A stretch of 64,000 bases of DNA from Candidatus Dojkabacteria bacterium (GTDB lineage Bacteria; Patescibacteriota; Dojkabacteria; SC72). Position numbers and translations under genes: made by a program. The stretch is from the NCBI GenBank assembly GCA_018056375.1, contig JAGPFQ010000002.1, positions 75,344-139,343 of the forward strand, in the 5' to 3' direction. The notes below the pieces were generated by a model. That model was not told the origin of the DNA. It worked only from the letters and a program-made list of their open reading frames with translations, and did not search any database. Position 1 is the stretch's first letter, and the number at the start of each line of letters is the position of its first letter. Shown piece by piece: positions 20,635 to 35,000 of this stretch.

Positions 20635-21654
20635 ATGATAGGGAGAAAATTAGGAATAGATTTAGGAACAGCAAACTCAGTGGTTTTCCTCCAAGGAGAG
20701 GGTGTAGTTTTGACAGAACCTACAGTTGTAGCTATAGATTTGGATACTTTTACTGTTGTTGCAGTAGGTAAGGATGCTAAGAAAATGATTGGTAAGACAC
20801 CTGATAATATAATTGCAAAGAGACCTCTTAGAGATGGTGTAATTGCTGATTCTAGAATAACAGAGGCACTTTTGAAACACTTTTTTGATAGGGCTCTTGG
20901 TAGAGCTAGATTTTTTAAACCAGATGTTGTTATGAGTGTACCTGCAGGAATTACTTCTGTGGAGGAGAGGGCTGTACTTAAGGCTGCCAATGCTGTTGGT
21001 TCTAAGACAATAACGTTGCTTCCTGAACCTCTTTTGGCTGCTTTGGGAGCAGAATTGCCAATTCATACATCTTCAGGGAATATGATTGTAAATATGGGTG
21101 GTGGAACCACCGAGGTTGCTGTAATGTCTTTGGATGGTATTGTAGAATATGAGTCTCTAAAGGTAGGAGGAGATGCTCTTAATGAATATATAATTTCATA
21201 TATGAAGAAGAATAAGGGTATCATGATAGGTGAGCAGACAGCTGAGAATATTAAAATTAGGATTGGTTCTGCTGTTGAAGTGAAAAAGCCAAAGCAGATG
21301 GAGATTAGAGGAAGAGATGTTGGAGCTGGTATGCCTAAATCAGTTATTGTTGATTCTAATGATGTTGTAAAAGCATTAGAATTTCCACTTAAGAAGATGA
21401 TAGAAGGTATCAAGAGTGTTTTAGAGAAGACACCACCGGAACTATCGGCTGATATTATTGATCGTGGTATGGTTATGAGTGGTGGTACGGCTAAGCTGAG
21501 AAACTTAGACAAGCTTTTCTCGAGAACAACAGGAGTTCCTGCCCATATAGCAGATGAAGCTCTTTTCTGTGTTGCAAAAGGTACAGGTATTGCTTTAGAA
21601 TTATTAGCAACAGGTGAGAGAAAATTCTCATTTAACAAAGAATTTAGAAGATAA
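20635..21654 (+). CDS. mreB: Rod shape-determining actin homolog MreB (paralog 1)
   Basis: LGIDLGTANSVVF phosphate-1 motif and an actin/Hsp70 fold, 339 aa. Confidence 0.85.
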   Translation: MIGRKLGIDLGTANSVVFLQGEGVVLTEPTVVAIDLDTFTVVAVGKDAKKMIGKTPDNIIAKRPLRDGVIADSRITEALLKHFFDRALGRARFFKPDVVMSVPAGITSVEERAVLKAANAVGSKTITLLPEPLLAALGAELPIHTSSGNMIVNMGGGTTEVAVMSLDGIVEYESLKVGGDALNEYIISYMKKNKGIMIGEQTAENIKIRIGSAVEVKKPKQMEIRGRDVGAGMPKSVIVDSNDVVKALEFPLKKMIEGIKSVLEKTPPELSADIIDRGMVMSGGTAKLRNLDKLFSRTTGVPAHIADEALFCVAKGTGIALELLATGERKFSFNKEFRR

Positions 21655-21674: not shown

Positions 21675-22826
21675 ATGTTTGACAAAAAGAAAAAAGAGAT
21701 GACATTGCAAGAAGTAACTGCACTTCTTGAGCAACTTAGATTACCAACAGCACTTGTCTTTACACCTCTTAATCTTGAGTCAGAGAAAAAGAAGTTTTTT
21801 GATTCTGATACATACGAACCATATTTTAAATACAGAATAGTTAAGAATGATAATGAAAAAATTCTTGATAAACTTTCTAAGGTTGAATTAATCTCCGATG
21901 TTGATCCAAGAATTTCCAAATTCTACATTGATTTAATTACATCTAAAGCACAAGCAAATGATTTAATGTATGCTGTAGGAAATAACCAGAAAGTTACAGA
22001 GATTTCAAAAGATAGATTTGGTATTCCCTCTCCAATTCTGTTTAGGAATGCTGCTAGGGTAATGAGAGGTGTTGTAAAGAACTACCACTTAGCGAAGAGT
22101 CCTTCAAAAACAAAAGATGTGTTAGGATATGATGAGATAGTTAAGGTATTTGACGGTGTGTTTAATGAATTGGGGTTAGAAGGGTGGGCAGTAGAGAGGT
22201 CAATAAATATATCCAAAAATGGAATTAAGATTGGTGTGAAGCGAAAACAAGTACTAGTTAATGAGGAGATTCAGAGGAGTAAATTTGCATTGAGAAAATC
22301 AATTGTGCATGAAGTTGGTACACATGTGCTTAGATCTGTAAATGGAAAAAACACGGGTTTCACAGCACTTGGAAATGCTAATTTACCAGCATATCTGGAT
22401 GTTGAGGAAGGGTTGGCAACGTGGAACGAGAGTGAAATGGGGGTGTTAACAGAGGATGGTTTGAAGAAGAAAGCTGCCTATGTTTATGCAATTAAGATAG
22501 GGGAGAATATGTCATTTAGACAGTTGTACAATGCTCTTCTTGGTTCTCTACCTAAATATTCAGCTTTTAATATAGTGTATAGGGTAAAGAGGGGTTTAGC
22601 TGATACAGCTAAACCAGGTATCTATACAAAAGATATTGTGTATTTTAGAGGTTTTAGAAAAGTGTTAAAGAAACTAGGTGAGGATAAATCATTATATCCA
22701 CTTCTGTATGCAGGTAAGATCGATTTTAAGCAATGTGATTGGGTTAGAGAAGGTTTGATACCTAAAGCAAAAATAGTCCCATCTAAAGAAATGTGGAACA
22801 AGATATTTACGAAGGTTGGGATATAG
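21675..22826 (+). CDS. DUF1704 / QEGLA-motif family protein (gluzincin-like HExxH metallopeptidase fold; the eukaryotic KIAA0895/MATCAP family)
   Basis: HEVGTHVLR HExxH motif, downstream EEGLATW (QEGLA-like) motif, ~380 aa, the typical family size. Confidence 0.55.
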   Translation: MFDKKKKEMTLQEVTALLEQLRLPTALVFTPLNLESEKKKFFDSDTYEPYFKYRIVKNDNEKILDKLSKVELISDVDPRISKFYIDLITSKAQANDLMYAVGNNQKVTEISKDRFGIPSPILFRNAARVMRGVVKNYHLAKSPSKTKDVLGYDEIVKVFDGVFNELGLEGWAVERSINISKNGIKIGVKRKQVLVNEEIQRSKFALRKSIVHEVGTHVLRSVNGKNTGFTALGNANLPAYLDVEEGLATWNESEMGVLTEDGLKKKAAYVYAIKIGENMSFRQLYNALLGSLPKYSAFNIVYRVKRGLADTAKPGIYTKDIVYFRGFRKVLKKLGEDKSLYPLLYAGKIDFKQCDWVREGLIPKAKIVPSKEMWNKIFTKVGI

Positions 22827-22843
22827 AACAGAAGAAAGAAGAG

Positions 22844-23019
22844 CCAGGTTACCTTTGTCGTATACCCTTTGGTCGTAAAGACTATAACGATTTTTTATCC
22901 GATATTTAACATACTACAAGACACTAGATAAAGCTTCTAGTATGTTAAATATCGTATTAGAAGTTCAATATAGTCTTGTTGTAGTAACGATATACGGATA
23001 TACGACAAAGGTAACCTGG
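22844..23019. mobile_element. MITE-like palindromic repeat, copy 2 (22-bp TIR CCAGGTTACCTTTGTCGTATA)
   Basis: Perfect 21-22 bp terminal inverted repeats, an internal palindrome atatttaacatactacaag / cttctagtatgttaaatat, shares gtaaagactataacga and tagtcttgttgtagtaacg segments with copies 1 and 3. Ends at 23019, directly abutting the TAA (minus) stop of the gene at 23020. Confidence 0.75.
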
Positions 23020-23949
23020 TTAAATAAATGCAGTGATAATGGCTTCTGCTATATTCACAGGTTTCCCTTCAATCTTTGTTTCGTATGCTTTATATCCTGG
23101 ATGGAAACTCCACTCTTGGACTGCAGGTTTTCCATTGATATACATAAAATCAACAGCCATAAAGTCTGCATGGAGTAGGGAAGCTACTTTTTCTGCTATG
23201 GTTTTAATCTCTTCATTTGGTTCGTTGTACATCTCATATTCACCTTTACTTACTGTCATAAAACTGCCTTTTGCATATCTCTTCCATCCACCAATGATTT
23301 TACCTAATTTAACAAAAACTCTGTAATCTTCACCAGAATTAGAGAACTCTTGTAAGAAGAAGTCTGGATTTAGCTTGTATTCATCTTCTTTTTCAATCTT
23401 AAATACATTCTTCTTTATCTTTTCCTTACCATCTATTACCTCAACTCTGTTTTTACCAGTATAGTCTTTGGTAATTAGTGGAAAATCTTTTAGATAATCT
23501 CTCTCTTCTGTGTAGTTTCCATCTGTTCTGAAGTATGTATTAAAATATGGGATGTTATTTATTGAACAGAATTGTGCCATTGCAATTTTGTTGTAGTAGG
23601 GGAATCTCTTTATAGCTTCAGCATTTTGTACTAATATGTTTTTATCTGGATTCTCTTTGTTGTACTGTTCTGCGAAATCAATAATATATCTTTTATAGTG
23701 ATATTCTTGGTCATTATGTAGGGCATGTCCTCTGAATATTATATGTGAATACTCTGCAATATCCTTTCCATTAGCTGTTATTATAAACCTACCATTATTT
23801 AATATAAATTCTAATTGGTCATTGTATATGAAATCTTGTTCTATATTCCTTTTGTCTAACTCTTCTAACAGTCTTGCAGAACTTGTTGGTATATCTAGTT
23901 TCTTACCAATTTCACCTCTCTGTCTTTTATCTATGATGAGATATTTCAT
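23020..23949 (-). CDS. ATP-grasp fold ligase (possibly tubulin-tyrosine-ligase/RimK-like), bracketed by two MITE copies
   Basis: C-terminal ATP-grasp signatures DYRVFVKLGKIIGG and ADFMAVDFMYINGKPAVQEWSFHPG, 309 aa. Confidence 0.5.
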   Translation of the reverse strand: MKYLIIDKRQRGEIGKKLDIPTSSARLLEELDKRNIEQDFIYNDQLEFILNNGRFIITANGKDIAEYSHIIFRGHALHNDQEYHYKRYIIDFAEQYNKENPDKNILVQNAEAIKRFPYYNKIAMAQFCSINNIPYFNTYFRTDGNYTEERDYLKDFPLITKDYTGKNRVEVIDGKEKIKKNVFKIEKEDEYKLNPDFFLQEFSNSGEDYRVFVKLGKIIGGWKRYAKGSFMTVSKGEYEMYNEPNEEIKTIAEKVASLLHADFMAVDFMYINGKPAVQEWSFHPGYKAYETKIEGKPVNIAEAIITAFI

Positions 23950-24001
23950 ACTTTTCTTGCTCTATTAAATTATCTATCTAATTTTATCATTTTTTAGTTC
24001 T

Positions 24002-24177
24002 TCCGGTTACCTTCATCGTATATCCTTACTACAATAACACTATATCGAGTTTTACATATGATATTTAACATACTAGAAGCTTTTATTTGAACAAGAGTAC
24101 CTTGTAGTATGTTAAATTTCTACTTAAAAATGATAATAGTCTTTACTCAGAAAGAGTATACGATGAAGGTAACCGGA
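24002..24177. mobile_element. MITE-like palindromic repeat, copy 3 (inverted relative to copy 2; TIR TCCGGTTACCTTCATCGTATA)
   Basis: The reverse complement aligns along its length with copy 2. Terminal repeats are perfect within the copy. Ends at 24177, abutting the TAA (minus) stop of the gene starting at 24178. Confidence 0.75.
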
Positions 24178-25881
24178 TTATATAATTTTTATCTTTTTAA
24201 TATATCCCTTACTTCTATACCTCTTTACAATCTTCATCTCTTCTTGATTTTCAAGCTCCTTACTCACAACTAATAAATCAATATTATTAAATCCTAAACC
24301 ATCACTCTTTACAGCATCCCAATCCCTATGATGAATAATTATGCCATCTAGTAAAGCATTAACCTTAAGTGCTTCAATACCTCTCCATTTCTCTAATCCA
24401 CTATTAATCTCTAACCCATTAATTCTTAAATATCCATCCTTGTATTCTCCAACTACTTCGTTTTCAGTAAAGTATGAACCAAAGAAATTCTTCTCTCTTA
24501 ATACAGTTAGAACATCTGGTAGACTACTTCCCACTACAACAACCTTTTTTGTTTTGTTGTCTTTTAGTAATTTCTTAACAAATATATCTATTACATATGA
24601 CCTGTCTTCCCCTAATACTGGGAAGAGATTAAGGTATGCTTCAGGCATTGTGTTAACCTCGAGGATACCTCCATTCTCTTGAGTAAGAGGTTCACTAATA
24701 TCTTTACAAAGTACATCAACTCCGACAACAAATGCATGTATAGAGGAAGCTATACTCTCTGCAACATACTTAATCTCATCAGAGACCTTGTCTGTAAAGT
24801 CCTCTGTTATACCTCCTTGACTCATACTAGCTACTTTTCTTACTTGTATTTTTTCATCCTGTTTTGGAATACTCTCTAATGTAAGGTCTTGCTCTTTAAG
24901 ATAGTCGAGTAGTGGTTGATCTATCTTTATTGGTTTTAATGTATGAGTAGGGTTAGTAACATCTCTTCTGGGGTCTTTGTTCGTTTCATCTAATAATTCT
25001 TGTATAGTACTCTTACCATCACCTACGATAAAGGCAGGGATTCTTTTTGTTGCTACCTCTAACTTACCATCGATAACTAGTAGCCTGTAATCTTCTCCTG
25101 GTACTTGTTCTTGAATCATTATCTTTCTCTGCCATGCTTCTCTCTCTTTACCATCAATGGCTTTTTGTGCGAAATCAAATGCCTTCTTTGCTTCCTCTAC
25201 TGTGTTTATACCAACTACAACACCACTTCCTCCAATTAATCCTGTGGGTTTGATTACAACTGGTTTGTTGTATTCACTCCATACTTCATCTATCTGGCTC
25301 TTGTTATCTAATGTTTCCCACTTAGGGATTGGTAGACCAAGTCTTGATATCATGAGATTGGTAGACCATTTATCCTTCTGCATCTCTTTTGCTATTTTAG
25401 AATCTTTGCTAGAAGAGATAGAGAAGATAATTTCAGAGCCTTTTCCACATCCAATTGTATGATGTCTGTTGTATCCTTTCATATATCCAGGTTTATCTGT
25501 ATCTAGAATTTTATTGTCTATAATTGTGGGAGTGATTTCATAACCCAAGGTGTATGCAGAGTGGAGTACTGGGATAGTGGACATAGATGCAACTCTCTGT
25601 TTGATTAATGTTTCAACAATATATTCTCTACATTCCTCATATGATATCTTTCTTTCTGCTAGCTTTTGTAAGTATTCACTTGCTTCTCTCCAAAGAAAGG
25701 CAGTTCTTGTTTCAATGTAAAGATAGCCTTGTGTGGAGTAATATTTTTCTATAAATAGTGGGTGAAAGCTACTGATTAAATCCAAAAGTTTCTTTACTTC
25801 TTCTGTTTCTTCTATCTCAATAATGATAGTTGAGTAGGGGGATATTAAGTTTAAACCTTGTAATACTTGTACTTTTTTCAT
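24178..25881 (-). CDS. Cyanophycin synthetase (CphA) G-domain-like ATP-grasp ligase lacking the Mur-ligase-like domain
   Basis: The segment DYRLLVIDGKLEVATKRIPAFIVGDGKSTIQELLDETNKDPRRDVTNPTHTLKPIKID matches the CphA ATP-grasp core (DYR[LV]LVV...HV[IV]GDGK.TI.ELI...N.DPRRG..H...L). 567 aa versus ~870 for CphA; the C-terminal ~120 aa is not Mur-ligase-like. Confidence 0.65.
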   Translation of the reverse strand: MKKVQVLQGLNLISPYSTIIIEIEETEEVKKLLDLISSFHPLFIEKYYSTQGYLYIETRTAFLWREASEYLQKLAERKISYEECREYIVETLIKQRVASMSTIPVLHSAYTLGYEITPTIIDNKILDTDKPGYMKGYNRHHTIGCGKGSEIIFSISSSKDSKIAKEMQKDKWSTNLMISRLGLPIPKWETLDNKSQIDEVWSEYNKPVVIKPTGLIGGSGVVVGINTVEEAKKAFDFAQKAIDGKEREAWQRKIMIQEQVPGEDYRLLVIDGKLEVATKRIPAFIVGDGKSTIQELLDETNKDPRRDVTNPTHTLKPIKIDQPLLDYLKEQDLTLESIPKQDEKIQVRKVASMSQGGITEDFTDKVSDEIKYVAESIASSIHAFVVGVDVLCKDISEPLTQENGGILEVNTMPEAYLNLFPVLGEDRSYVIDIFVKKLLKDNKTKKVVVVGSSLPDVLTVLREKNFFGSYFTENEVVGEYKDGYLRINGLEINSGLEKWRGIEALKVNALLDGIIIHHRDWDAVKSDGLGFNNIDLLVVSKELENQEEMKIVKRYRSKGYIKKIKII

Positions 25882-25883
25882 AT

Positions 25884-26888
25884 CTATTCTTTTGAATTTA
25901 AATATTTATCCCTAATATATTCCATAATTGGAATAGCTACTTTAACCTGTTCACCTTTATCTACTTTGTAGTGTAATCTTAATCCTGGGTTGTAGTTAAT
26001 TTCATTGACAGCACATTCATCTGGTTTTGTAATATCTTTTGCAATGATATCTACACCTCCAAACTCTGATCCAACAGTCTTTACAGCTTTGATAGCTAAC
26101 TGTCTGTAGAAGTCGTGAGTTTCTTTTGCACACTCTTCTGTTGTTCCTCCTGTAGTAAGATTGCAGTTGTATCTTAATATCTGCTCTTTTCCTTTTTCAA
26201 CTACAGACTCTAGGTTAAGATTATCTCTCATGAGTTTGAGCATGACCTCATTATCTATTGGTATTGGTAGTAAACCTTTTTCCTTTCGTGATATATTCTC
26301 TAGTTCTATCAGCTGTCTTACTGTGTGTTCTCTATCTCCAACTACATGTGCTGCCTTTCTTCTTACGATACCAATAACTTGATTTCCTAGAACTAGAAGT
26401 CGGTAGTTTTCACCATGTATGAATTCTTCTCCTATAACTTTTTTATCATCAGAAGGTGCATGGGAAGAATCAAAAGCAATCTTAAATGCTTTCAATACCT
26501 GTTCTTCACTCTGTGGAAGGATAGATACACCTTTACCACCTAATTGTTGAGTTGGTTTAATTACTATATCCTTATACTTATCGTAGAATTTAATAGCATC
26601 CATCTCGCATGTGAGAATCTCTTGTTCTGGAACTTTTACCCCCTGTTCTTTCAACACCAAATGTGTCAAATTCTTCCTTTTACATATTGTTGTACTGGGA
26701 GTAGGGACTAATGGAGTTACTGTGTTTATAATGAACCAATGTTTGTTTTCAACAGAAAATTTTGCCATGAGACCTGGAACTAATACTTTGTAGTTGATTC
26801 CTAGAATATCTGCAGCCTCAACGTAGTAGGAGAGATGGATATTCCCAGCTATCTGAATGTATTTCTTTTTGTCTTTATCTTCCTCCAT
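25884..26888 (-). CDS. ATP-grasp ligase, CphA/RimK-like (short form)
   Basis: ENYRLLVLGNQVIGIVRRKAAHVVGDREHTVRQLIELEN resembles the CphA/glutathione-synthetase-type ATP-grasp motif, 334 aa. Confidence 0.6.
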   Translation of the reverse strand: MEEDKDKKKYIQIAGNIHLSYYVEAADILGINYKVLVPGLMAKFSVENKHWFIINTVTPLVPTPSTTICKRKNLTHLVLKEQGVKVPEQEILTCEMDAIKFYDKYKDIVIKPTQQLGGKGVSILPQSEEQVLKAFKIAFDSSHAPSDDKKVIGEEFIHGENYRLLVLGNQVIGIVRRKAAHVVGDREHTVRQLIELENISRKEKGLLPIPIDNEVMLKLMRDNLNLESVVEKGKEQILRYNCNLTTGGTTEECAKETHDFYRQLAIKAVKTVGSEFGGVDIIAKDITKPDECAVNEINYNPGLRLHYKVDKGEQVKVAIPIMEYIRDKYLNSKE

Positions 26889-26913
26889 GATGTTTTAAAT
26901 TATATTCAATATA

Positions 26914-28362
26914 TTATTTAAACGTCTTACTGGTGTCAATCAAATATCCTTTCAGATCTTCTTTTCCAAACATTACATGATACTCTAGGTCAGGAACTAC
27001 AACAGTTTCAATCTCTCTTTCTTCTCCTGTTATTCTAACTTTAATCTGTATAACAGGGTAGATATTTACAAAATCTCCTTCTACAATTTTTGCAATTCTA
27101 ACAATACCATCTTCCATTGTAAGCTTTTGAAGATTAGCATCAATATATTCCTGTGCTTCTTTAAGTGATTGGAAGTTTTTGGGAACATTCAAACTCCTAA
27201 AATATTTTGTTGTTGATATATATCCAATTCTATTCGCAAATGTCTCAGAGATTCTAGATGTTAGAACACCTGTATCCATAAAAGCTTTGGCAACTTCTCT
27301 TACTTCTTTTCCTTTTTTTCTTTTCTTCAGGTGTGTAACAAGTATTCTCTCGTTAATATTCACAACCTTTCTACCACTGATAGCCTCAATGCTTTCCTCT
27401 ACTTCTCCTCCAAAGAGACTTTTTGCCAACCTTATCCCATGCTTTATCCCTTTCACTTCAATATCCTTAACTTTTTCTAATCTCCATCTCAAACCTGCTT
27501 TGTTTGCTACCTGTATACCTAATCCGGGTCTAGCATTTAACTCAAAGACGATAGGGCCTTTCTCAGCATCAAGAGCAATATCAACACCGAGATATCCTAA
27601 CTTTGAAACTCTTTGACACTTGAGAGCTATTTCAAGAATATTATCCCAATCAGGAATTTGAATACCACTAAGAAGTTTGTTTTCTTTCAAATCTTGTGTC
27701 ATTTCAATATCTTCATATCTATCTGAGAAAAGTGAGGATGTATCCATCTGCATAGAGTAGGTGGTAATACCTGTTGCGATATCAATACCTGTACAGATAG
27801 CACCAGAATGTAGATTAGCTGTACCATCTGATCTTTTAGTAGGTATTCGAGCCATAGCCATGATTGGGACACCGTTAAAACAGATAACTCTAATATCAGG
27901 AACTCCTTTGTAGGAGTATTGTTTGAGTAAAGAGTCTGTTTTTACTCTCTCTTCAAGAATGGCAATATCTTTCTTGTTTCCCATTGAGAACCTACCTTCT
28001 AGTATATTCTCAATATGTAGAATGATGTCATTTTTTGTCATTACATTTCCACTAGGTCTAATCCATGCCATTTCACCTTTCTTTTTACCATAGAAGACAA
28101 CGATTCCATTTCCTCCTGTACCCTTGTTTGGCTTAATTACAAAACTTTTAGGTAAACTCTCCCAATCTAGAAACTTAAGTTGTAGTTTTGATCTGATTAG
28201 CTTGTAAACTTCTGGAGATTTAATTCCTTCTTTTGCTATTAATCTCTTTGTTGCAATCTTGTTGTCAACAAGTCTTTTCGCAGAAGGAGGATTGTATGGT
28301 CTAATATATTCCTGATTCCTCCTGTTTAATCCCAAAATGTCTTTGTAGTGGTTGTTAATCAT
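26914..28362 (-). CDS. RimK-like alpha-L-glutamate-ligase-related ATP-grasp fused to a C-terminal retropepsin-like (DTG) putative protease domain
   Basis: N-terminal LGLNRRNQEYIRPYNPPSAKRLVDNKIATKRL and GVPDIRVICFNGVPIMAMARI...GYLGVDIALDAEKGPIVFELNARPG (ATP-grasp); C-terminal ~170 aa contains MDTGV (aspartic protease D-T-G). 482 aa. Confidence 0.6.
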   Translation of the reverse strand: MINNHYKDILGLNRRNQEYIRPYNPPSAKRLVDNKIATKRLIAKEGIKSPEVYKLIRSKLQLKFLDWESLPKSFVIKPNKGTGGNGIVVFYGKKKGEMAWIRPSGNVMTKNDIILHIENILEGRFSMGNKKDIAILEERVKTDSLLKQYSYKGVPDIRVICFNGVPIMAMARIPTKRSDGTANLHSGAICTGIDIATGITTYSMQMDTSSLFSDRYEDIEMTQDLKENKLLSGIQIPDWDNILEIALKCQRVSKLGYLGVDIALDAEKGPIVFELNARPGLGIQVANKAGLRWRLEKVKDIEVKGIKHGIRLAKSLFGGEVEESIEAISGRKVVNINERILVTHLKKRKKGKEVREVAKAFMDTGVLTSRISETFANRIGYISTTKYFRSLNVPKNFQSLKEAQEYIDANLQKLTMEDGIVRIAKIVEGDFVNIYPVIQIKVRITGEEREIETVVVPDLEYHVMFGKEDLKGYLIDTSKTFK

Positions 28363-29035
28363 CTTTTTTTATCTTTGTTGCAGATTTAAATCTGAAATAG
28401 TCACTTAATCTTAAACCTCTAAATTGACCAATCAAGAGGTTAAATACTATCAATGCTGGAACAATCCATAGGTTATTAATTACATATGTTGCAGCAAATT
28501 CTCTTGTAATCACAAACCAACCAACTGTTGCTACGAGTAGGGTACCTATAAATGAGGTTAGTGATGATTTGAAAGACTTTTGAACTAATTGCTTAATGAA
28601 GAAGTCTGAAAGTGTTGCAATCGAAATTAATGCTAGTGGTGGAATATTTGCTATATTTTCTAAACCTAGTTTGTATTTATTAGCAATTAGTATAAATCCA
28701 GTAATTGCCATGGTTAGTAAGCAGTAGTTGATAGCGATTCTTGTGATGTAGTGCATTCTAATTTTTCGAAGCAAGTAGTGAGATAGAAGGGTGGTTAGAA
28801 TGACTACTATTGTTGTAGCCAAGCCGTATTTTAGACCGGTGTACGAGTATGCTATTGCTAAGATAATGGGGGCATATATACCGTAGCTTTTAGTACCAAG
28901 AATGTATCTAAAGATACTTACAATGGTAGCCACTATTGTAATAGCTACAAGTAATTCAATTGTTTTTTCTGGTAAACCATTTTCGATTAACCAGCTTGTA
29001 AATGGAGAGTAATTCACTGTTCTACAAAATGACAA
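28355..29035 (-). CDS. Seven-transmembrane protein (7TM module of the 7TM-transglutaminase-associated ATP-grasp systems; no transglutaminase domain)
   Basis: 226 aa with seven predicted hydrophobic helices. First gene of a co-directional, tightly spaced or overlapping five-gene minus-strand cluster with the ATP-grasp genes. Confidence 0.5.
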   Translation of the reverse strand: MSFCRTVNYSPFTSWLIENGLPEKTIELLVAITIVATIVSIFRYILGTKSYGIYAPIILAIAYSYTGLKYGLATTIVVILTTLLSHYLLRKIRMHYITRIAINYCLLTMAITGFILIANKYKLGLENIANIPPLALISIATLSDFFIKQLVQKSFKSSLTSFIGTLLVATVGWFVITREFAATYVINNLWIVPALIVFNLLIGQFRGLRLSDYFRFKSATKIKKDD

Positions 29036-29222
29036 TTTAATGTTTTTATAATAGCAGATTTATGACTTAATTATACCATTTTTAGAGAGGAAAAGATAGT
29101 AATAAGAACTGTGGTTACCTTGTGAGATTTGCCAGTGTGTATCTGGACTATTATCGTTTTTAGTCAAAAAGTTAATGTACTATAGGTGTGTTGCCTTGCA
29201 ATTTGATTAGTAACTTGGTGTA

Positions 29223-30326
29223 ATGAATGAGATGAAGAAGGTCTTGATATTTACTGCCGGCGCTGGTGCTGGACATGTATCGTGTTCTAATGCACTTAAG
29301 AATGCATTATTAGAAAAAAATAAAAACTGGGAAGTAGAAATAATCGATATGTATCTACTTTCAAAAACTACCTCTAAAAATGGTCATCTTTACTCTTTAG
29401 TTAGTCGTATACGCCTCTTTGAAGCTGTATACAATCTAATTCATATATTAGTAGATAAATATAGATGGTTTGCTAAGCTTGCTGAATTTGTTGCTCTTAG
29501 ACCAATGTACAAACCAACTTTGAAGGTCATAGAGGAATATAATCCTGATATTGTGGTGGGAAATAATGCATTGTTAATACCAGTATTAGATTGGTGTCGT
29601 AAAAGGAAGGAATTTAAATATTTTGTTACTGTTACAGATCTAATAACTGTTTGTAGATGGTGGGCTAGTGAATTAGCAGATACAGTTTTTGTACCCACAG
29701 AGGAAGCTGAGAAGACACTGAAGGCATATGTTCCTAACTGTAACATTGCACGTGACTATTTCTCTTTTAGGGAAATAAAGCCTCTCTCTAAAGAGGAGAA
29801 GATGGAAGTATTTGAGCATTTCTTTTCAGGAACGACATTTAGTCCTACAAAACCTTTGATTGTGGTAACAGGTGGTGGTTTCTCAACAAGAAAAATAATG
29901 AAGGGTATTAAAAAGTATATTGAATCTTCTCATCATCAGTTTGTAATTCTAACTGGAAGAGACAAGGTGTTGTATGATGAGTTGCAAGAGGAGTTTGCAG
30001 GAGATGATAATGTCTTGATTCTTGGCTTTACGGATAGGAATTTAGATTTGATAGCAATTGCAGATGTCGTTATATCAAAATTTGGTTCTGTTAGTGTTGT
30101 AGAGATAGAGGAGATGAACAAAAAGACCATATTTACAAAACCTGTTGGTTATCAGGAATATGGAAATGTTGAATATATTAAGAGAAACAGGAATTTTGTA
30201 TTTGTAGGTAATAACTACAGACAAGTAGTTATTGAAATAGAGAGTTTCTTAATAGAAGACTATGAACCTTCAACTGCCCATATTCAAAATGCTAATGCAA
30301 TAGTTGAATATATCTTACAAAAATAG
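29223..30326 (+). CDS. GT28-family glycosyltransferase (MGDG synthase / UgtP-like diacylglycerol glycosyltransferase)
   Basis: N-terminal KVLIFTAGAGAGHVSCSNALKNAL resembles the MGDG_synth/UgtP N-terminal motif, 367 aa. Confidence 0.55.
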   Translation: MNEMKKVLIFTAGAGAGHVSCSNALKNALLEKNKNWEVEIIDMYLLSKTTSKNGHLYSLVSRIRLFEAVYNLIHILVDKYRWFAKLAEFVALRPMYKPTLKVIEEYNPDIVVGNNALLIPVLDWCRKRKEFKYFVTVTDLITVCRWWASELADTVFVPTEEAEKTLKAYVPNCNIARDYFSFREIKPLSKEEKMEVFEHFFSGTTFSPTKPLIVVTGGGFSTRKIMKGIKKYIESSHHQFVILTGRDKVLYDELQEEFAGDDNVLILGFTDRNLDLIAIADVVISKFGSVSVVEIEEMNKKTIFTKPVGYQEYGNVEYIKRNRNFVFVGNNYRQVVIEIESFLIEDYEPSTAHIQNANAIVEYILQK

Positions 30327-30435
30327 TTTCCTTTACATTTTGCAACCCTAAGTTTACATAAAGCAACTGTAAATTGGTGGTTGCAACTGCTAATATATTG
30401 GTAGAATTGGCCATTAATTTAACAATATATTAAAT

Positions 30436-31887
30436 ATGAGTTTTAGAAAAAATTTAGAATACCTTAGAAAGGGTAGAAAGCTTTCTCAGGAAGATCTAGC
30501 AGACAAGCTAGGTATTTCTAGACAGTCTGTTTCTAAGTGGGAATCTGGAGCAGCATATCCAGAAACAGATAAGATGTTGGCTCTGTGTAAGCTCTTTGAC
30601 TGTACTCTTGATGAATTAATGAATCAAGATATGCAAGAGGAGAAGTTAGAGGAATCAAGGAAATATACATTTAATGACTTCCTAAAGAGTGTTACGGGGA
30701 TAGTTGATAGGAGTATTAAGATGATTACTTCTATGAATGCTAAGTCTCTGTTTAAGTTTGTTTTAGAAATAGGTGTTCTTTTACTCTTGATTATATTGAT
30801 GAGACTACCTTTTCAATATATATATGATGCTGGAGCCAATATCTTTACACAGATAGATAGTAGATATTTTGATATATTGAGAGCTTTTTGGAAATTCTTG
30901 ATTGATATAGTGTATCTTGTAGTTAGTATAGTAGGTTTTGTATATATATACAAAGTACGATTTCTTGATCCTTTTGAGAGTATAGAGGTGAGAGAGACAT
31001 TTAAGAAGGAGAAGGTTAAAGAAAAAGGAGATCAACCTTCTGTAGTTAAGAGTGAAGTAAAAGAAGTTAAAAAAGTAGAGAAGAGGAATGTAGATTTTGG
31101 AATATTTAGATTCTTAGGAAAGGTTGTTCTCTTCTTTGTTAAGTGTTTTGTAGCTTTTTGTACTCTATTTATCGTATTTTTCTTCCTCTGTTCTGTTGCT
31201 GGTGTAGTTGTTTCAATCTCATGGATGTTTGAAGGTGTTGTCTTTTTTGGTGTTCTGCTCTTCCTTCTTACATTAATAGCATTTCTTGGTATGTTAATAG
31301 TGGTTTTGTACAATTTCATCTTTAACAGGAAGACTGCATGGAAGAAGATTCTTGTAGTTCTTTTAATAACCCTTGTAGGATTTGGGATTAGTGCAGGAGT
31401 AGGGTTCTTAGAGTTTAAGGAGTTTTCTGTCAATACAGAATGTGGTTCAGCCTTAACATCAGACATGGAGGTTAGGGAGTTTGAGATGAAAGATGAGTTA
31501 GTAGTACAAGTGAATAGTGGGGTTAGAAATTATGTGATAGATAATACATTGGGAGATATTATAAAAGTGGAGGTGAGGTATTCTAAGAAGTATTCCGAAG
31601 TCCATATTGATGAGAGAGAGAATGATATTTTGGTACATAGGGTAGATAAAGGGATTTCTTTTAAAGATATTTACAAAGTTTTTCTATATGATTTGAAGAG
31701 GAAGGAATTGAGAGGGAATTACAGAGATGCATTTGGTGATTGTGTGACTATATATGCTAGTAGGGAAAACAAGGATAAGCTTCAGCAGAATTGGGAAGAA
31801 AGGGTTGGTGTACATATGTCAGGCGATTATCCTTGTATTTGTATTGAAGATGGTGAGGAGTTTGGGTGTGAGTGTGAGTTAAGGTGA
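30436..31887 (+). CDS. XRE-family helix-turn-helix protein with multi-pass membrane region and C-terminal domain (RodZ-like architecture)
   Basis: N-terminal HTH LSQEDLADKLGISRQSVSKWESG; several TM helices; C-terminal Cys-containing soluble domain. 483 aa. Confidence 0.55.
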   Translation: MSFRKNLEYLRKGRKLSQEDLADKLGISRQSVSKWESGAAYPETDKMLALCKLFDCTLDELMNQDMQEEKLEESRKYTFNDFLKSVTGIVDRSIKMITSMNAKSLFKFVLEIGVLLLLIILMRLPFQYIYDAGANIFTQIDSRYFDILRAFWKFLIDIVYLVVSIVGFVYIYKVRFLDPFESIEVRETFKKEKVKEKGDQPSVVKSEVKEVKKVEKRNVDFGIFRFLGKVVLFFVKCFVAFCTLFIVFFFLCSVAGVVVSISWMFEGVVFFGVLLFLLTLIAFLGMLIVVLYNFIFNRKTAWKKILVVLLITLVGFGISAGVGFLEFKEFSVNTECGSALTSDMEVREFEMKDELVVQVNSGVRNYVIDNTLGDIIKVEVRYSKKYSEVHIDERENDILVHRVDKGISFKDIYKVFLYDLKRKELRGNYRDAFGDCVTIYASRENKDKLQQNWEERVGVHMSGDYPCICIEDGEEFGCECELR

Positions 31888-31917
31888 GTAGAAAAATTCC
31901 AAAATTGAACAGATTAA

Positions 31918-31957
31918 TTACCTCTCTGTCAAAATAGATAGAGAGGTAGTTGTTTTT
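31918..31957 (+). terminator. Rho-independent terminator after the HTH-membrane gene
   Basis: Perfect 8-bp stem ACCTCTCT/AGAGAGGT (31920-31927 / 31940-31947) followed by agttgttttt. Confidence 0.55.
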
Positions 31958-32078
31958 AAAAGTAGAGGGGGTCTTTTTACTAAATGTCCATATTTCCCTG
32001 TTTATAGTTAAAAAACACTTGCTATTAATAGATTAATATTGTAAATTGTAGGATAGAAACTGCTTATACTTTTTTTAA

Positions 32079-35000
32079 ATGGAAATAACTAAAAAGCCCA
32101 ATATACCACAACAAACAGCTAGTGTTAGTAACAAGAATCAAACAGATGTTACTTCTTGGATAAAAAATAACAGTTTTACAAACTCTAAGGAGAATATGAT
32201 AAAGCTTGTTGTATTAGCACTTTTGGCTTTTCTTCTTCCGTTTTCTGTAGTTGTATCATCTGCAACATACAGTAAGTATGATTTTTTCAAAAAAGATCAG
32301 GTAACTGAAGGTGATGTATTAGGTGCTGGTGAAGCTGTTTGTCAGGAGGATAAGGTGTGTGGAATGGTTGGTTTAGGAGGTTGTGTAGCTAGAGCTGAGT
32401 GTTTGGAGAATGAGTTTGCTTGTGGGGAGGGTGCTGATATGGTTTGTTGTGATAAAGGGGAGTGTCAGGAATGTTCTCCATGTATAGATGGTTTTCAGGC
32501 AGAAGCAAATGAGTGTGGAGAGGTGACAAAGAGTTGTGAGAGTGTTGATTGTACAGGTGGAGTTTGTGGTGAGGTAGAGAGTGTTTGTTATCCGGTGAAA
32601 TATAAGGTGACTTATGGTACCAAGGAAGGAAAATGTCCTGAGCCAGAGGAGGTTTGTCCTGGAACTGCTAACAAGGCTCCTGAGTGTAGTAGTAATACTG
32701 CTACTGTACAGGAATATACTTTGATTAGTGGTACTTGTGAAGGATTTGATACTAAGACAGGGGTTTGTAATGAAGTTGTGGAAGATCTTGAAGTTGGTGT
32801 TGTTTGGGAGCCAATGGTTTTACCTAAAGGTTCTCCACTGATGGGTGCAAAGGGTGGTGCAGGGATCAGGGCAATGACAGCACCTAGTATTAGTAGTGTC
32901 TCTCCTACGAACTATTCTTTTCTAGGTGGTGGTAGTATGACAATTAATGTCTCTAATATTGTTGACACGGAACAGTTTGATATTGTTGCTTCTGGAGGTA
33001 ATCATACTTGTGGAATAAAGAGTGATGGTTGGGCCTACTGTTGGGGGTATAACTATCACGGTCAATTAGGTGATGGAACTAATACGAACTCTTCGGTACC
33101 TGTAAAAGTTGCCCAAGGTGTAATTCCAGAAGGAGTGGGATTGAAAGAAATTACAGCTGGTAGTACTCATACTTGTGTGATAGGGACGAATGATAAGGCT
33201 TACTGTTGGGGCTACGGTGCTAATGGTCGACTAGGTAATGGATCTACAAGTAATAGGAATACTCCTGTTGCAGTTAATACTACAAGAACATTTAGAGGTA
33301 TTGTTGCTGGAGGTGGTCATACGTGTGCGTTTGGTGATATAGAAATGTACTGTTGGGGATTAAATAGTTCAGGTCAATTAGGTGATGGTACTACAACTCA
33401 AAGAACAACTCCTGTTCAAGTTAATCGAGGGGATATACCTGCAGGCACTGGTCTTTATAGTCTCACTGCAGGAGATTCTCATACTTGTGTACTTGATACA
33501 GGCAATGTTATTGGAGGGGGTGGTCCCATAGTGTCTGCAGTTTCAAATGTTAAAGCATATTGTTGGGGGAATAATCAATATGGTCAAGTGGGGGATGGTA
33601 CTACAACAACCCCGAAAACGACTCCTGTAGGTGTAGATTTTATAGCTTTTGGTACACCGAGCCCTTTTAAGAAAATAAATGCAGGTGGTTATCATACTTG
33701 TGCAATAAATGGTAATGATGTTACTTACTGTTGGGGGTTGAATAACGGAGGTCAATTGGGTGATAACAGCACAAATAATGCTTCCAGACCAAAAGCTATT
33801 AATCAAGGTAATATTCCTACAGGAGAAACATTGGAAATGCTGTCTCTTGGTTTATATCACTCTTGTGCCATAGCTAGTAATGCAAAAGCATATTGTTGGG
33901 GGCAGGGTCAATATGGTCAGTTGGGGAATAGTGGCACGGGAGGATCTTATACTCCTGTAGCTGTAAGTCAAGGAGCAATTCCTACTGGGATAGGAATTGC
34001 CAATATGGGGACAGGTAGTTACCATGGTTGTGTGAGAGGTAGTAATGGAAAACTATATTGTTGGGGACAGAATACCTATGGTAAGTTAGGAGATGGAACT
34101 ACAACTACTCCAAGAACTTCTCCAGTGGCTGTTGTAGATGCTGCAGGTGCAAATACGTATGAAATAAATATAGGGAATAATACATTGACAAGAACACTGA
34201 CTCCTGGAACTACGAGTATATCTGTAAGTCCAATACTTGCACATACTCCAGGTACAGTGTCTATATATATAAAGAGGTTAACAGATAATGTTAACTCTAA
34301 CAGTGTTTCTTTTGTATATAGCAATTTCCCTGCACCGAGCATTTCTAATGTAAATCCTAATACTATTGGTCAAGCAGGAGGAGAGACAGTCAGTATTACA
34401 GGGTCTAACTTCCTTGATTACAATGTGTTTGGGAGTGTTGTTAGTATATCAGCAGGTATGTTTCATTCTTGTGCAATTCAGGAAGAAGGTGCTTTTTGTT
34501 GGGGAAGAAATAATTATGGTCAGTTAGGTGATCGTTCTATAAACCAGAGAAATACTCCTGTTCTTGTGGATAAGGGAGATATTCCTGCAGGAGTGTCTCT
34601 CAGTAGTATTAGTGTAGGGAGTTATCATACTTGTGGAGTTGGAAGTAATTATAAAGCTTACTGTTGGGGGTATAACAATGCCGGGCAGCTAGGTGATGGT
34701 GGTAGTGTAACTAGTAGTGATTCTCCTATTGAAGTTCAGACAAGTGTGACCTTTAAGAGTATCAGCGCAGGTGGTTATCATACTTGTGGCATAAGTACTG
34801 ATAATTGGGCATACTGTTGGGGACAGGGAACATATGGTAAGTTAGGTAATGGTGGTACGACTGATTCCTCAATACCAGTAGCTGTCAATCAGGGGGCTAT
34901 TCCAAGTGGAGTCTCATTGATAAGTATCAGCGCAGGTGCTAATCATACTTGTGCTATAGGCAGTGATGATTGGGCTTACTGTTGGGGACAGGGAACATAT

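What the first reader, a model, noticed from the sequence alone, without database searches (positions are those of the whole stretch)
21675..29035. Multi-ATP-grasp amidoligase locus with 7TM protein, retropepsin-like domain and DUF1704 peptidase: candidate peptide-tagging/detagging or poly-amino-acid system
Seen in sequence: five co-directional minus-strand genes (7TM 28355-29035, RimK-like ATP-grasp plus C-terminal DTG domain 26914-28362, ATP-grasp 25884-26888, CphA-G-domain-like ATP-grasp 24178-25881, ATP-grasp 23020-23949), with 2-7 nt overlaps or 2-25 nt gaps between the first four and the last separated by a 228-nt intergenic region carrying a MITE; the convergent DUF1704/QEGLA HExxH gene (21675-22826) lies directly beside it. 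Established knowledge: 7TM plus RimK-like ATP-grasp plus retropepsin-like peptidase triads are a described but functionally uncharacterised bacterial amidoligase system. CphA ATP-grasp domains extend poly-Asp backbones. DUF1704 is the fold of the eukaryotic tubulin detyrosinase MATCAP, which opposes an ATP-grasp ligase (TTL). Inference: four different ATP-grasp ligases next to a putative opposing peptidase suggest a system that builds and trims a peptide tag, or a cyanophycin-like polymer, on a protein or cell-envelope substrate, possibly signalled through the 7TM module. Two of the ligases are CphA-like yet lack the Arg-adding Mur-ligase domain, which is unusual.
Basis: partly seen in the sequence, partly recalled or inferred. 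Interest (0 to 1): 0.85.

Follow-up and report, generated by a model that had tools for sequence, protein, structure and literature searches.

The report
Conserved multi-ligase peptide-chain operon in Dojkabacteria
A tiny uncultured bacterium (Candidatus Dojkabacteria) carries a conserved gene cluster of four different ATP-driven peptide ligases, a membrane protein and two peptide-trimming enzymes. Its parts all point to building and cutting back an acidic amino-acid chain, in a combination not described before and with an unknown product.

Summary
All six ORFs sit at the stated coordinates, and profile and structure searches confirm every domain call:
- a 7TM_transglut membrane protein;
- a bare cyanophycin-synthetase G domain;
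- a 567-aa cyanophycin-synthetase-like protein;
- a RimK-family ligase;
- a convergent MATCAP/DUF1704 peptidase.

Corrections:
- The metal motif is HExxxH plus EEG, not HExxH.
- Two MITE copies flank the last ligase, not one.
- The 567-aa protein keeps an N domain and a truncated, P-loop-less M domain, which is the architecture of CphA2. Lacking the Arg-adding domain therefore has precedent.
- The 7TM/ATP-grasp/retropepsin triad now has genetics and protease biochemistry (RloABC, 2025).

The gene order is kept in 51 of 52 species-level Dojkabacteria genomes with enough flank. The CphA2-like family is so far seen only in that lineage.

Best reading (about 0.5): cytoplasmic ligases extend an acidic Glu/Asp chain at its C-terminus. 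The fused retropepsin cuts it internally and the MATCAP-like carboxypeptidase trims its end. Whether the chain is a free polymer or a protein tail is open, as is the substrate.

This is a new variant of known kinds, moderately to highly interesting.

The parts
28355..29035 (-). First gene of the operon: a 226-aa membrane protein with about seven hydrophobic segments (7TM_transglut). It corresponds to the C-terminal module of RloB and has no transglutaminase-like domain.
   Evidence: PF14402 E 3.6e-19. The RloB model NF052267 matches only over its positions 312-506 of 508 (52 bits against a cut-off of 900). Hydropathy profile. Found in 54 relatives a median of 8.5 nt from the next gene.
27463..28362 (-). 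RloC-type ATP-grasp ligase domain: residues 1-300 of the 482-aa fusion protein.
   Evidence: PF14397 E 3.7e-68. TIGR02291 E 5.8e-89, 298 bits against a cut-off of 314. The E-L-N magnesium-binding motif is present. Homologues are 67-98% identical, and the 119 Dojkabacteria-type proteins listed beyond the closest hit (497 aa) are all 482-491 aa.
26914..27375 (-). Retropepsin-like (RimB/RloA/DUF785-type) aspartic peptidase domain with a conserved DTG. It covers residues ~330-482 of the same protein. There is no signal peptide, so it is cytoplasmic.
25884..26888 (-). 'G3': a 334-aa stand-alone cyanophycin-synthetase-type G domain (ATP-grasp).
   Evidence: TIGR02068 positions 166-470, E 2e-57. Best solved relative is CphA1 7lgn, E 1.4e-30. 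All CphA1 residues for catalysis and for binding the incoming Asp are invariant in 66 species: K72, K111, R163, R177, N243, G302, R304, E296, N298. Position 245 is T or S.
24178..25881 (-). 'G4': a 567-aa cyanophycin-synthetase-2-like protein with an N domain, a G (ATP-grasp) domain and a truncated M domain that lacks the Mur-ligase P-loop.
   Evidence: phmmer best hits are CphA2 8fxh (E 5e-44, aligned through the M remnant) and 7ta5. AlphaFold pLDDT 92.6. Foldseek top hit is 7ta5 with TM 0.71/0.69 over the full length. Residue mapping.
24002..24177 (.). MITE-like palindromic element, copy 2. It fills the 228-nt gap and abuts the stop codon of G4.
   Evidence: Absent from most relatives, where the G5-G4 gap has a median of 11 nt.
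23020..23949 (-). 'G5': a 309-aa divergent RimK-family ATP-grasp ligase, the last gene of the operon.
   Evidence: PF08443 E 2.3e-7. TIGR00768 E 1.2e-11, MptN E 3.8e-11. No solved sequence relative. Carries E-x-S instead of E-x-N, conserved in 68 of 71.
22844..23019 (.). MITE-like palindromic element, copy 1. It lies in the convergent gap and abuts the stop codon of G5.
21675..22826 (+). MATCAP/TMCP-family (DUF1704, QEGLA) metallocarboxypeptidase, 383 aa, with no signal peptide. It converges on the ligase operon.
   Evidence: PF08014 E 1.2e-33. TIGR02421 scores 133 bits against a cut-off of 339. Human MATCAP 7z5g E 3.8e-14. H212, E213, H217, E245, G246 and E252 are invariant in 80 species.
20635..21654 (+). 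Second MreB paralogue, 20 nt upstream of the peptidase gene on the same strand. This is a probable two-gene operon. Its link to the ligases is uncertain.
   Evidence: PF06723 E 5e-126. Adjacent within 200 nt on the same strand in 67 of 72 relatives. About 42% identical to the mreC-linked MreB of relatives.
29051..29078 (-). Probable promoter core of the ligase operon: TGgTATAAT (29070-29078) followed by AATCTGCTAT (29051-29060).
   Evidence: Read from the sequence. Relatives carry the matching, conserved TCGACA-N17/18-(G)TATAAT plus AATCTGCCAT just after the rplL terminator. The consensus scan did not flag it because the -35 element is weak.

Best explanation
This is a cytoplasmic, ribosome-independent system that makes and trims a peptide chain. 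It is a lineage-specific elaboration of the RimK/RimB and RloABC type of system.

Four unrelated ATP-grasp ligases each activate a C-terminal carboxylate with ATP and add an amino acid or a small peptide unit:
- The RloC-type and RimK-type ligases most likely add alpha-linked glutamate.
- The bare G domain (G3) most likely adds aspartate. It keeps every residue that CphA1 uses to hold the incoming Asp.
- The CphA2-like enzyme (G4) most likely joins or elongates larger units, with a specificity different from cyanophycin synthesis.

The product would be an acidic Glu/Asp-rich chain, either free or attached to the C-terminus of a protein. Chain length would be set by two opposing hydrolases:
- the retropepsin domain fused to the RloC-type ligase, whose homologues cut inside poly-glutamate;
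- the neighbouring MATCAP-family carboxypeptidase, whose homologues remove C-terminal glutamates.

The 7TM protein holds the machinery at the membrane, or passes or anchors the product there.

Shown: the domains, the conserved catalytic residues, and the conserved gene order.
Inferred: the chemistry, the product, the role of the 7TM protein, and the participation of the carboxypeptidase.
For: Family assignments for all parts.

Folds:
- Retropepsin fold with a conserved DTG.
- Full-length CphA2-like fold.

Residues:
- G3 keeps R323, N394, S396, G456 and R458 of TeCphA1, all conserved in 66 species (position 245 is T or S, the rest invariant) (residue roles from PMC9427784).
- Catalytic motifs of all the enzymes are conserved in 60-80 species.

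The ligases are not recent copies of each other:
- G3 and G4 are 28% identical.
- G5 and the RloC-type domain show no pairwise similarity.

Gene order:
- Tight spacing, with median gaps of 8-24 nt.
- The operon has its own conserved promoter.
- The order is kept in 51 of 52 species-level genomes, even though the flank upstream of the 7TM gene was rearranged in the window's clade.

Published activities of the homologues:
- RimB and RloA cleave runs of at least 8 Glu. Loss of RloB or RloC suppresses loss of the RloA proteases (PMC12239564).
- The TMCP/MATCAP family carries HExxxH plus EEG and acts as a deglutamylase (PMC10499314).

An independent MATCAP to ATP-grasp operon exists in Rhizobiales.
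Against: - No product or substrate was identified.
- No neighbour has a conserved acidic C-terminus. This was checked for the MreB paralogue, the 7TM tail and L7/L12.
- The retropepsin domain has F where RloA has the glutamate-binding K46.
- G5 carries E-x-S in place of the usual E-x-N metal-binding motif.
- The carboxypeptidase is in a different transcription unit. Unrelated genes are inserted between it and the ligases in 15 of 69 relatives.
- All 80 related loci come from one lineage, so shared ancestry alone could explain the adjacency.
- In Vibrio the MATCAP-family gene stands alone.
Confidence: 0.5

Rival explanations
1. The ligases act in sequence, each adding one residue, to build a defined short peptide or peptide-tailed metabolite such as an osmolyte or a cofactor tail. 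There is no polymer or protein tag, and the peptidases recycle the product.
For: - Four mutually dissimilar ligases fit four distinct steps.
- The G-domain family also includes the glutathione-forming GshF module and the N-acetylglutaminylglutamine synthetase.
- In Rhizobiales, MATCAP-family genes sit between an N-formylglutamate-amidohydrolase-like gene and a glutathione-synthetase-like gene. That looks like small-molecule metabolism.
- A QEGLA gene is induced 27-fold at low salinity in Photobacterium (PMC10308900).
Against: - G4 has the full three-domain architecture of a polymerase (CphA2).
- RimB/RloA-type retropepsins need at least 8 Glu.
- RimK-type and CphA-type enzymes are iterative.
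Confidence: 0.2
2. The functional unit is only the five-gene ligase operon. The MATCAP-like peptidase works with the MreB paralogue, or on its own, and lies next to the ligases only through inherited gene order.
For: - The peptidase is convergent and 20 nt downstream of mreB2, an arrangement kept in 67 of 72 relatives.
- The junction with G5 is the commonest insertion site: 15 of 69 gaps exceed 150 nt, with up to 3.8 kb of unrelated genes.
- The Vibrio homologue is not next to any ligase.
- All the evidence for adjacency comes from one lineage.
Against: - Adjacency is kept at 50-97% protein identity, while the other flank of the operon was rearranged.
- A MATCAP to ATP-grasp operon exists independently in Rhizobiales.
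- The family's known activity, removal of C-terminal Glu, is the exact reverse of RimK-type ligation.
- The tail of the MreB paralogue shows no conserved terminal residue that would suit a carboxypeptidase.
Confidence: 0.35
3. The locus makes genuine cyanophycin (poly-Asp with Arg side chains) as a nitrogen store. The work of CphA1 is split among separate proteins.
For: - Two proteins belong to the cyanophycin synthetase G-domain family, and G4 has the CphA2 architecture.
- G3 keeps the Asp-binding residues.
- Sources annotate homologues as 'cyanophycin synthetase'.
Against: - There is no active M domain or other Mur-type ligase in the cluster to add Arg. The P-loop is absent from the G4 remnant.
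- The acidic residue that binds the Arg side chain (E215 in TeCphA1, D212 in StCphA2) is T in G3 and variable in G4 (K 26, E 19, N 8 of 65).
- In G4, N394 is replaced by S, G456 by E, and the P-loop His by G or A.
- TIGR02068 scores are 195 and 238 bits against a cut-off of 850.
- No cyanophycinase gene lies nearby.
Confidence: 0.06
4. The cluster is a graspetide-type RiPP pathway or an anti-phage defence island.
For: ATP-grasp ligases with peptidases occur in RiPP clusters.
Against: - There is no room for a precursor gene. Gaps in relatives are 8-24 nt.
- The rplL to 7TM spacer holds a terminator and a promoter, not an ORF.
- No PADLOC match.
- The cluster sits in the conserved core genome next to ribosomal protein genes.
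Confidence: 0.02

Closest known systems
RloABC of Pseudomonas aeruginosa (Lormand et al. 2025, PMC12239564)
   Same: - An RloC-type ATP-grasp: PF14397, and TIGR02291 at 298 bits.
- A 7TM_transglut membrane partner encoded directly upstream.
- A DUF785/RloA-type retropepsin.
- The genes are overlapping or tightly spaced.
   Different: - The 7TM protein lacks the periplasmic inactive-transglutaminase domain.
- The protease is not secreted. It is fused to the C-terminus of the cytoplasmic ligase.
- Three further ligases sit in the operon.
- The host is a CPR bacterium, whereas 96% of RloB hits are in Proteobacteria.
RimK/RimB (ribosomal protein S6 poly-alpha-glutamylation and its trimming)
   Same: A cytoplasmic pairing of a RimK-family ligase with a retropepsin. 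In Pseudomonas, RimB binds RimK; here the pairing is made permanent by fusion. The chain is extended at its C-terminus.
   Different: - The ligases score far below the RimK family cut-off (55 and 45 bits against 143).
- S6 as substrate was not tested.
- There is a membrane partner and there are CphA-type ligases.
Cyanophycin synthetase 2 (CphA2; 7TA5, 8FXH)
   Same: - G4 has the N domain, G domain and truncated inactive M domain.
- Full-length structural match (TM 0.71/0.69).
- Equivalents of R308, D362, R389 and S395 are kept.
- It has Tyr at the position where CphA1 has R458, as StCphA2 does.
   Different: - 21-23% identity in the Foldseek structural alignments to CphA1 and CphA2.
- N393 is replaced by Ser, G455 by Glu, and there is no P-loop His.
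- The Arg-binding Asp is not conserved.
- It is not cyanobacterial.
- It is embedded in a multi-ligase operon, with no CphA1 or cyanophycinase nearby.
MATCAP/TMCP carboxypeptidases opposing the TTL/TTLL ATP-grasp ligases on tubulin tails
   Same: - PF08014 fold family.
- HExxxH plus EEG metal site.
- The logic of a C-terminal carboxypeptidase set beside ATP-grasp ligases that extend C-termini.
   Different: - Bacterial, with no tubulin.
- The ligases are RimK/CphA types, not TTL.
- Only the catalytic half aligns to human MATCAP (residues 203-363).
- The substrate is unknown.
The FGase / QEGLA(MATCAP) / glutathione-synthetase-like triad on Rhizobiales megaplasmids
   Same: A MATCAP-family gene in an operon with an ATP-grasp amidoligase.
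   Different: - The peptidase carries an extra ~260-aa N-terminal region.
- There is a single GshB-type ligase.
- An FGase-family hydrolase is present.
- There is no 7TM protein, retropepsin or CphA-type gene.

Membership tests
RloABC system | RloC-type cytoplasmic ATP-grasp (PF14397 / TIGR02291) | tested here: met
   PF14397 scores 230 bits against a cut-off of 31. TIGR02291 scores 298 bits, just under its 314-bit equivalog cut-off.
RloABC system | RloB: seven TM helices fused to a periplasmic inactive transglutaminase domain | tested here: not met
   Only the 7TM part is present, in a 226-aa protein. NF052267 matches only its positions 312-506 of 508, at 52 bits against a cut-off of 900.
RloABC system | RloA: a separate, secreted retropepsin with a signal peptide | tested here: not met
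RloABC system | Protease cleaves poly-glutamate; loss of rloB or rloC suppresses loss of the protease | not testable with these tools
   Needs biochemistry and genetics. Of the RloA glutamate-binding residues, the K46 equivalent is F. Several Arg residues (R370, R378, R422, R435) are invariant.
RimK/RimB | RimK-family alpha-L-glutamate ligase (TIGR00768) | tested here: inconclusive
   G5 scores 44.5 bits and the RloC-type domain 54.7 bits against a cut-off of 143. They are family-level relatives only.
RimK/RimB | [quoted passage not shown] | not tested
   rpsF was not located in the window. L7/L12, encoded next to the operon in most relatives, ends in A, E or K, so its terminal residue is not conserved.
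Cyanophycin synthetase 1 (CphA1) | N, G and an active Mur-ligase-type M domain in one protein; TIGR02068 equivalog score | tested here: not met
   Scores of 238 and 195 bits against a cut-off of 850. G3 has no N or M domain. The M remnant of G4 is ~120 aa with no P-loop and gave no Mur-ligase Pfam hit.
Cyanophycin synthetase 2 (CphA2) | N domain, G domain and a truncated inactive M domain | tested here: met
   phmmer aligns query residues 152-540 to StCphA2 202-578. Foldseek against 7ta5 gives TMq 0.71 and TMt 0.69 over ~598 columns.
Cyanophycin synthetase 2 (CphA2) | Residues needed for activity on cyanophycin and beta-Asp-Arg: D212, R308, D362, R389, N393, S395 | tested here: not met
   R266, D321, R348 and S354 are kept. 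The N393 equivalent is an invariant Ser. The D212 equivalent is variable (K/E/N) (PMC10273328).
Cyanophycin synthetase 2 (CphA2) | Polymerises beta-Asp-Arg dipeptides | not testable with these tools
   Needs an enzyme assay.
MATCAP/TMCP (PF08014) | Profile match above the gathering score, with HExxxH plus the EEG third ligand | tested here: met
   117 bits against a cut-off of 27. HEVGTH and EEGLA are invariant in 80 species and in the Rhizobiales homologues.
QEGLA equivalog (TIGR02421) | Score at or above 338.65 bits | tested here: not met
   133.5 bits. It is a distant member of the wider family.
Graspetide RiPP clusters | A precursor peptide gene next to the ATP-grasp ligase(s) | tested here: not met
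   There is no space for one in relatives, where gaps are 8-24 nt. The upstream spacer is a terminator plus a promoter.

The most novel reading that the evidence does not exclude
The operon makes a biopolymer or protein tail of a kind not yet described. One form would be a cyanophycin-like or mixed Asp/Glu poly(amino acid) assembled by a division of labour among separate ATP-grasp ligases. In that form a CphA2-type polymerase would be fed by dedicated unit-building ligases rather than by breakdown of cyanophycin.

The other form would be a reversible C-terminal 'tail code' on a core bacterial protein, with the MATCAP-like carboxypeptidase as eraser. Candidates are the ribosomal stalk protein L7/L12, encoded directly upstream in most Dojkabacteria, and the adjacent MreB paralogue. 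That would be a bacterial counterpart of the tubulin tyrosination and glutamylation cycle.
Probability: 0.2. Interest if true: 0.85.

Novelty: new variant of a known kind. Interest (0 to 1): 0.62.

Why it matters
- Rlo-type systems affect osmotic tolerance, antibiotic resistance and cell shape in Pseudomonas, yet their product is unknown. A compact version in which the ligase and protease are fused, the periplasmic domain is missing and extra ligases are present gives a different handle on what such systems make.
- It places a CphA2-like polymerase outside cyanobacteria, and a MATCAP-family peptidase beside bacterial ATP-grasp ligases. That bears on where the eukaryotic tubulin-tail enzymes came from.
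- The operon is kept next to ribosomal protein genes across a whole class of reduced-genome bacteria, so its product is probably important to their biology.
- The five or six genes are small enough for direct heterologous expression and mass spectrometry.

Tried and rejected
- **MreB paralogue tail as ligase or peptidase substrate.** Its C-terminus is not acidic, and its last residues vary (FRR, SIT, GYN, KLS) in 80 species. The idea is weak.
- **Cytoplasmic tail of the 7TM protein as primer.** The tail is charged, but its end is not conserved.
- **L7/L12 as substrate.** The gene lies directly upstream in most relatives. However, a terminator and a separate promoter intervene, and the last residue is A, E or K. 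This is a lead only.
- **Direct Pfam detection of the DTG domain and of the N- and C-terminal regions of G4.** Nothing significant came back. Structure prediction resolved both.
- **Profile search of the DTG domain against PDB sequences.** E-values were only marginal (0.04), though the motifs aligned correctly.
- **Reaching non-Dojkabacteria MATCAP loci through the genome scan.** All 80 loci returned were Dojkabacteria-type. The plasmid collection supplied the only outside contexts.
- **The Iyer et al. 2009 amidoligase paper.** It could not be read, so its description of the triad is not cited.
- **Defence system, Rfam and consensus promoter/terminator scans.** There were no PADLOC or Rfam hits, and the promoter/terminator counts were at or below the shuffled expectation.
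- **Literature search for DUF1704 together with ATP-grasp.** No papers found.

Full report
**Source and setting**

The window has about 35% G+C. Proteins identical or nearly identical to those in the window carry the source name Candidatus Dojkabacteria (WS6, a candidate-phyla-radiation lineage). One MATCAP-like protein, P0121, is 100% identical and sits on a 763-kb contig.

The wider window holds ordinary core genes:
- rho, leuS, argS and uvrA;
- comEC-type competence genes;
- three Mur ligases and a class B penicillin-binding protein;
- ten tRNAs.

Peptidoglycan therefore appears to be made in the usual way, and the locus lies in the core chromosome.

**Checking the observation**

The junctions are an 8-nt overlap, then gaps of 25, 2 and 228 nt. 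A 193-nt gap separates the last ligase from the convergent peptidase gene.

Profile searches confirm the calls:
- 7TM_transglut for 28355-29035.
- ATPgrasp_ST and TIGR02291 for residues 7-300 of 26914-28362.
- The G-domain region of the cyanophycin synthetase model for 25884-26888 and 24178-25881.
- RimK family for 23020-23949.
- MATCAP (formerly DUF1704) for 21675-22826.

- Ddi1 and retroviral proteases after those.

The DTG triad and a second block, RPVI...G, are conserved and align to the Pseudomonas enzymes. The retropepsin call is therefore sound.

Three details need correcting:
- The peptidase motif is HEVGTH followed by EEGLA. This is the HExxxH plus EEG arrangement that defines MATCAP/TMCP enzymes, not HExxH.
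- There are two ~176-nt palindromic MITE copies. One follows the stop codon of G4 and one follows the stop codon of G5, so they bracket G5. A third, diverged copy lies between two tRNA-Ala genes.
- Most relatives have neither insertion. Their G5-G4 and G5-peptidase gaps have medians of 11 and 12 nt.

**What the four ligases are**

They are not recent duplicates. G3 and G4 share 28% identity over the G domain, and G5 shows no pairwise similarity to the RloC-type domain.

*G4.* Its best solved sequence relatives are the two CphA2 structures (8fxh, 7ta5). The alignment runs past the G domain into CphA2's truncated M domain. A high-confidence model (pLDDT 92.6) matches 7ta5 over its whole length, with TM 0.71 and 0.69. 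G4 therefore has the N domain, G domain and vestigial M domain of CphA2. CphA2 is described as a cyanobacterial enzyme that polymerises beta-Asp-Arg dipeptides using its G domain alone (PMC10273328). The Mur-ligase P-loop is absent from the remnant, which reads VVVVGSSLPD.

*Residue mapping onto StCphA2 and TeCphA1* (residue roles from PMC10273328 and PMC9427784):
- G3 keeps every catalytic residue and every residue that binds the incoming Asp. K220, K261, R309, R323, N394, G456 and R458 are invariant in 66 species, and S396 is T or S.
- G3 does not keep the acidic residue that holds the primer's Arg side chain, nor the P-loop His.
- G4 keeps R309, R323, D362, R389 and S395.
- G4 has an invariant Ser for N394, Glu for G456, and Tyr for R458. 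CphA2 enzymes have Tyr or Phe at that last position.
- The Arg-binding position in G4 is variable: K in 26, E in 19, N in 8 of 65.

I read this as follows. G3 is an Asp-adding C-terminal ligase. G4 is a CphA2-like elongating enzyme with a different incoming substrate. Neither is built to handle an Arg-decorated chain.

*G5.* It is a divergent RimK-family member with a conserved E-x-S in place of the usual E-x-N metal-binding motif.

**Conservation**

Homologues of the fusion protein, of G4 and of the peptidase are abundant, and every source name given in the result tables is CPR-type, mostly Dojkabacteria/WS6.

An exhaustive HMMER search with G4 found full-length relatives in only about nine to thirteen 50%-identity clusters. 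All the named ones are Dojkabacteria. Beyond those, similarity falls to 35% or less and covers only the G domain.

Four contigs carrying homologues of the fusion protein show the same six genes in the same order. A genome scan with the peptidase alignment then gave 80 species-level loci at 50-97% identity. By tblastn:
- G5, G4, G3 and the fusion gene lie beside the peptidase gene in 51 of 52 loci with at least 6.5 kb of flank.
- The single exception, L040, has an inserted block with a histidine kinase and a YcaO gene. It starts with two genes of the same kinds as the first two genes of a smaller insertion in L035: one with no Pfam hit, then a ~760-aa multi-pass membrane protein (a histidine kinase in L035). 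The operon probably lies beyond the end of the fetched sequence.
- The MreB paralogue lies directly upstream of the peptidase gene in 67 of 72 loci.

The other flank is informative. In about 34 of 48 relatives with enough sequence, rplJ-rplL lie 105-200 nt upstream of the 7TM gene on the same strand. That spacer holds a strong terminator hairpin followed by a conserved TCGACA-N17/18-(G)TATAAT promoter and the motif AATCTGCCAT. The ligase operon is thus its own transcription unit.

In the window, three plus-strand genes have been inserted between rplL and the operon: a GT28 glycosyltransferase, an HTH-membrane protein and a 1708-aa RCC1-repeat protein. rplL now lies 8.2 kb away, while the TGgTATAAT and AATCTGCTAT elements remain. 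The operon and its peptidase neighbour therefore stayed together while the surroundings changed.

**How it most likely works**

Three parts have characterised homologues, and all three act on poly-glutamate:
- RimK makes poly-alpha-glutamate and glutamylates S6 (as summarised in PMC12239564).
- RimB and RloA cut runs of eight or more glutamates. Deleting rloB or rloC suppresses the defects caused by losing the RloA proteases.
- TMCP/MATCAP enzymes remove C-terminal glutamates and poly-glutamate chains.

All RimK-type and CphA-type ligases extend a chain at its C-terminal carboxylate. A carboxypeptidase is therefore the direct reverse of elongation, and an endopeptidase resets the chain.

Adding the Asp-type pocket of G3, the simplest model is an acidic Glu/Asp chain. 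It would be made in the cytoplasm at the membrane-bound 7TM protein and kept in check by the two hydrolases.

Because the protease is fused to a cytoplasmic ligase and the 7TM protein has no outer domain, this version resembles RimK/RimB in location. By sequence and by its membrane partner it is Rlo-like.

I put this model at about 0.5. I cannot say whether the chain is free or attached to a protein.

**The peptidase link**

This link is inferred. In its favour:
- adjacency is conserved;
- the chemistry matches;
- there is an independent FGase / MATCAP / glutathione-synthetase-like operon on Rhizobiales megaplasmids.

Against it:
- the peptidase sits in a separate convergent unit with mreB2;
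- unrelated genes are frequently inserted at that junction;
- the Vibrio homologue stands alone;
- all the adjacency data come from one lineage.

**Substrate searches that led nowhere**

- The MreB paralogue's tail is not acidic and its end is not conserved.
- The same is true of the 7TM tail.
- L7/L12 ends in A (23), E (16) or K (4). From my own knowledge, K is the usual bacterial terminal residue, so this is curious, but it is not evidence.

**Rivals and verdict**

- A stepwise pathway to a defined small peptide remains plausible (0.2).
- True cyanophycin is unlikely (0.06).
- A RiPP pathway or a defence system is effectively excluded.

No paper in the searchable library describes this locus. 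It fails the defining features of RloABC (no transglutaminase domain, no secreted protease), of CphA1 and, at residue level, of CphA2. It works like a blend of these systems, and I class it as a new variant of known kinds.

Noticed in passing
window 22844-23019, 24002-24177 and 4538-4672: A family of ~176-nt palindromic MITE-like elements with GGTTACCTT(Y)RTCGTATA termini. Two copies each abut a stop codon and bracket the G5 gene. A third, ~70% identical copy lies between two tRNA-Ala genes. Related copies occur in the close relatives L007 and L008.
   Followed up: partly
window 29223-37205 (+) and 37276-38231 (-): In most Dojkabacteria, rplJ-rplL lie directly upstream of the 7TM gene. In the window they are 8.2 kb away. 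A GT28/MGDG-synthase-like glycosyltransferase, an HTH_3 protein with a multi-TM C-terminal part, and a 1708-aa RCC1-repeat/fibronectin-III protein are inserted on the opposite strand.
   Followed up: partly
L017-L074 and others, rplL to 7TM spacers; window 29051-29078: The spacer between rplL and the operon has a conserved layout: a G+C-rich terminator hairpin with a T-run, then TCGACA-N17/18-(G)TATAAT, then AATCTGCCAT. The last motif lies downstream of the -10 element and has no assigned role.
   Followed up: partly
window 37276-37620 (-) and rplL of 46 related loci: Ribosomal protein L7/L12 ends in ...VELA (23 loci, including the window), ...VELE (16) or ...VELK (4, three of them in the deepest clade). 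The terminal Lys that I recall as usual in bacteria is mostly lost.
   Followed up: partly
L079, L081, L082 (e.g. L082 16058-17032): The deepest-branching relatives carry a ~1.04-kb insertion between G4 and G3. In L082 it is a same-strand peptidase C45 / acyl-CoA:6-APA acyltransferase-family (Ntn hydrolase) gene, PF03417 E 6e-14, possibly an extra hydrolase of the system. A ~2.3-kb insertion lies between G5 and G4 in L079-L082. In L080 it holds an opposite-strand alpha/beta-hydrolase plus a GT4 glycosyltransferase.
   Followed up: partly
window 23020-23949, residue S281: G5 has E-W-S where ATP-grasp enzymes normally have the E-x-N magnesium-binding motif. Ser is kept in 68 of 71 orthologues. 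The enzyme is conserved but may bind metal differently or be regulatory.
   Followed up: partly
P0373, P0375, P0377, P0380; L087 5371-8385: After the Dojkabacteria clusters, many of G4's nearest relatives (12 of 18 between P0373 and P0390) are proteins of 1100-2000 aa. The five I scanned or viewed carry two or three ATP-grasp modules, or a CphA-like module, fused to LPG_synthase_C, acylphosphatase, PGA_cap (CapA) or AMP-binding domains. One is a 1004-aa 'CapA family protein' on a Microvirga plasmid. These look like uncharacterised multi-ligase synthetases.
   Followed up: partly
L040 11209-19449; L035 and L051 ~11150-14980: Some relatives have a 7TM-sensor histidine kinase inserted between the peptidase gene and G5. 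In L040 a YcaO cyclodehydratase follows, then a nitroreductase-like ORF and a possible peptidase and ABC ATPase (both judged by eye). That gene content suggests a thiazole/oxazole-type RiPP cluster.
   Followed up: partly
window 20635-21654 and L001 762-1817: Dojkabacteria carry two MreB paralogues. One is linked to mreC. The other, ~42% identical to it, is always paired with the MATCAP-like gene and lies next to a PEGA-domain membrane protein. Rlo mutants of Pseudomonas have cell-shape defects, so this may or may not be coincidence.
   Followed up: partly
window 4832-5614: A 260-aa ORF matches only the first half of the glycosyl hydrolase family 1 profile (positions 4-221 of 453). It may be a truncated or split gene.
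   Followed up: no
window 38518-43486: A 799-aa VWA-domain protein is followed by a 712-aa AAA_5 (MoxR/dynein-type) ATPase. No function is assigned here.
   Followed up: no
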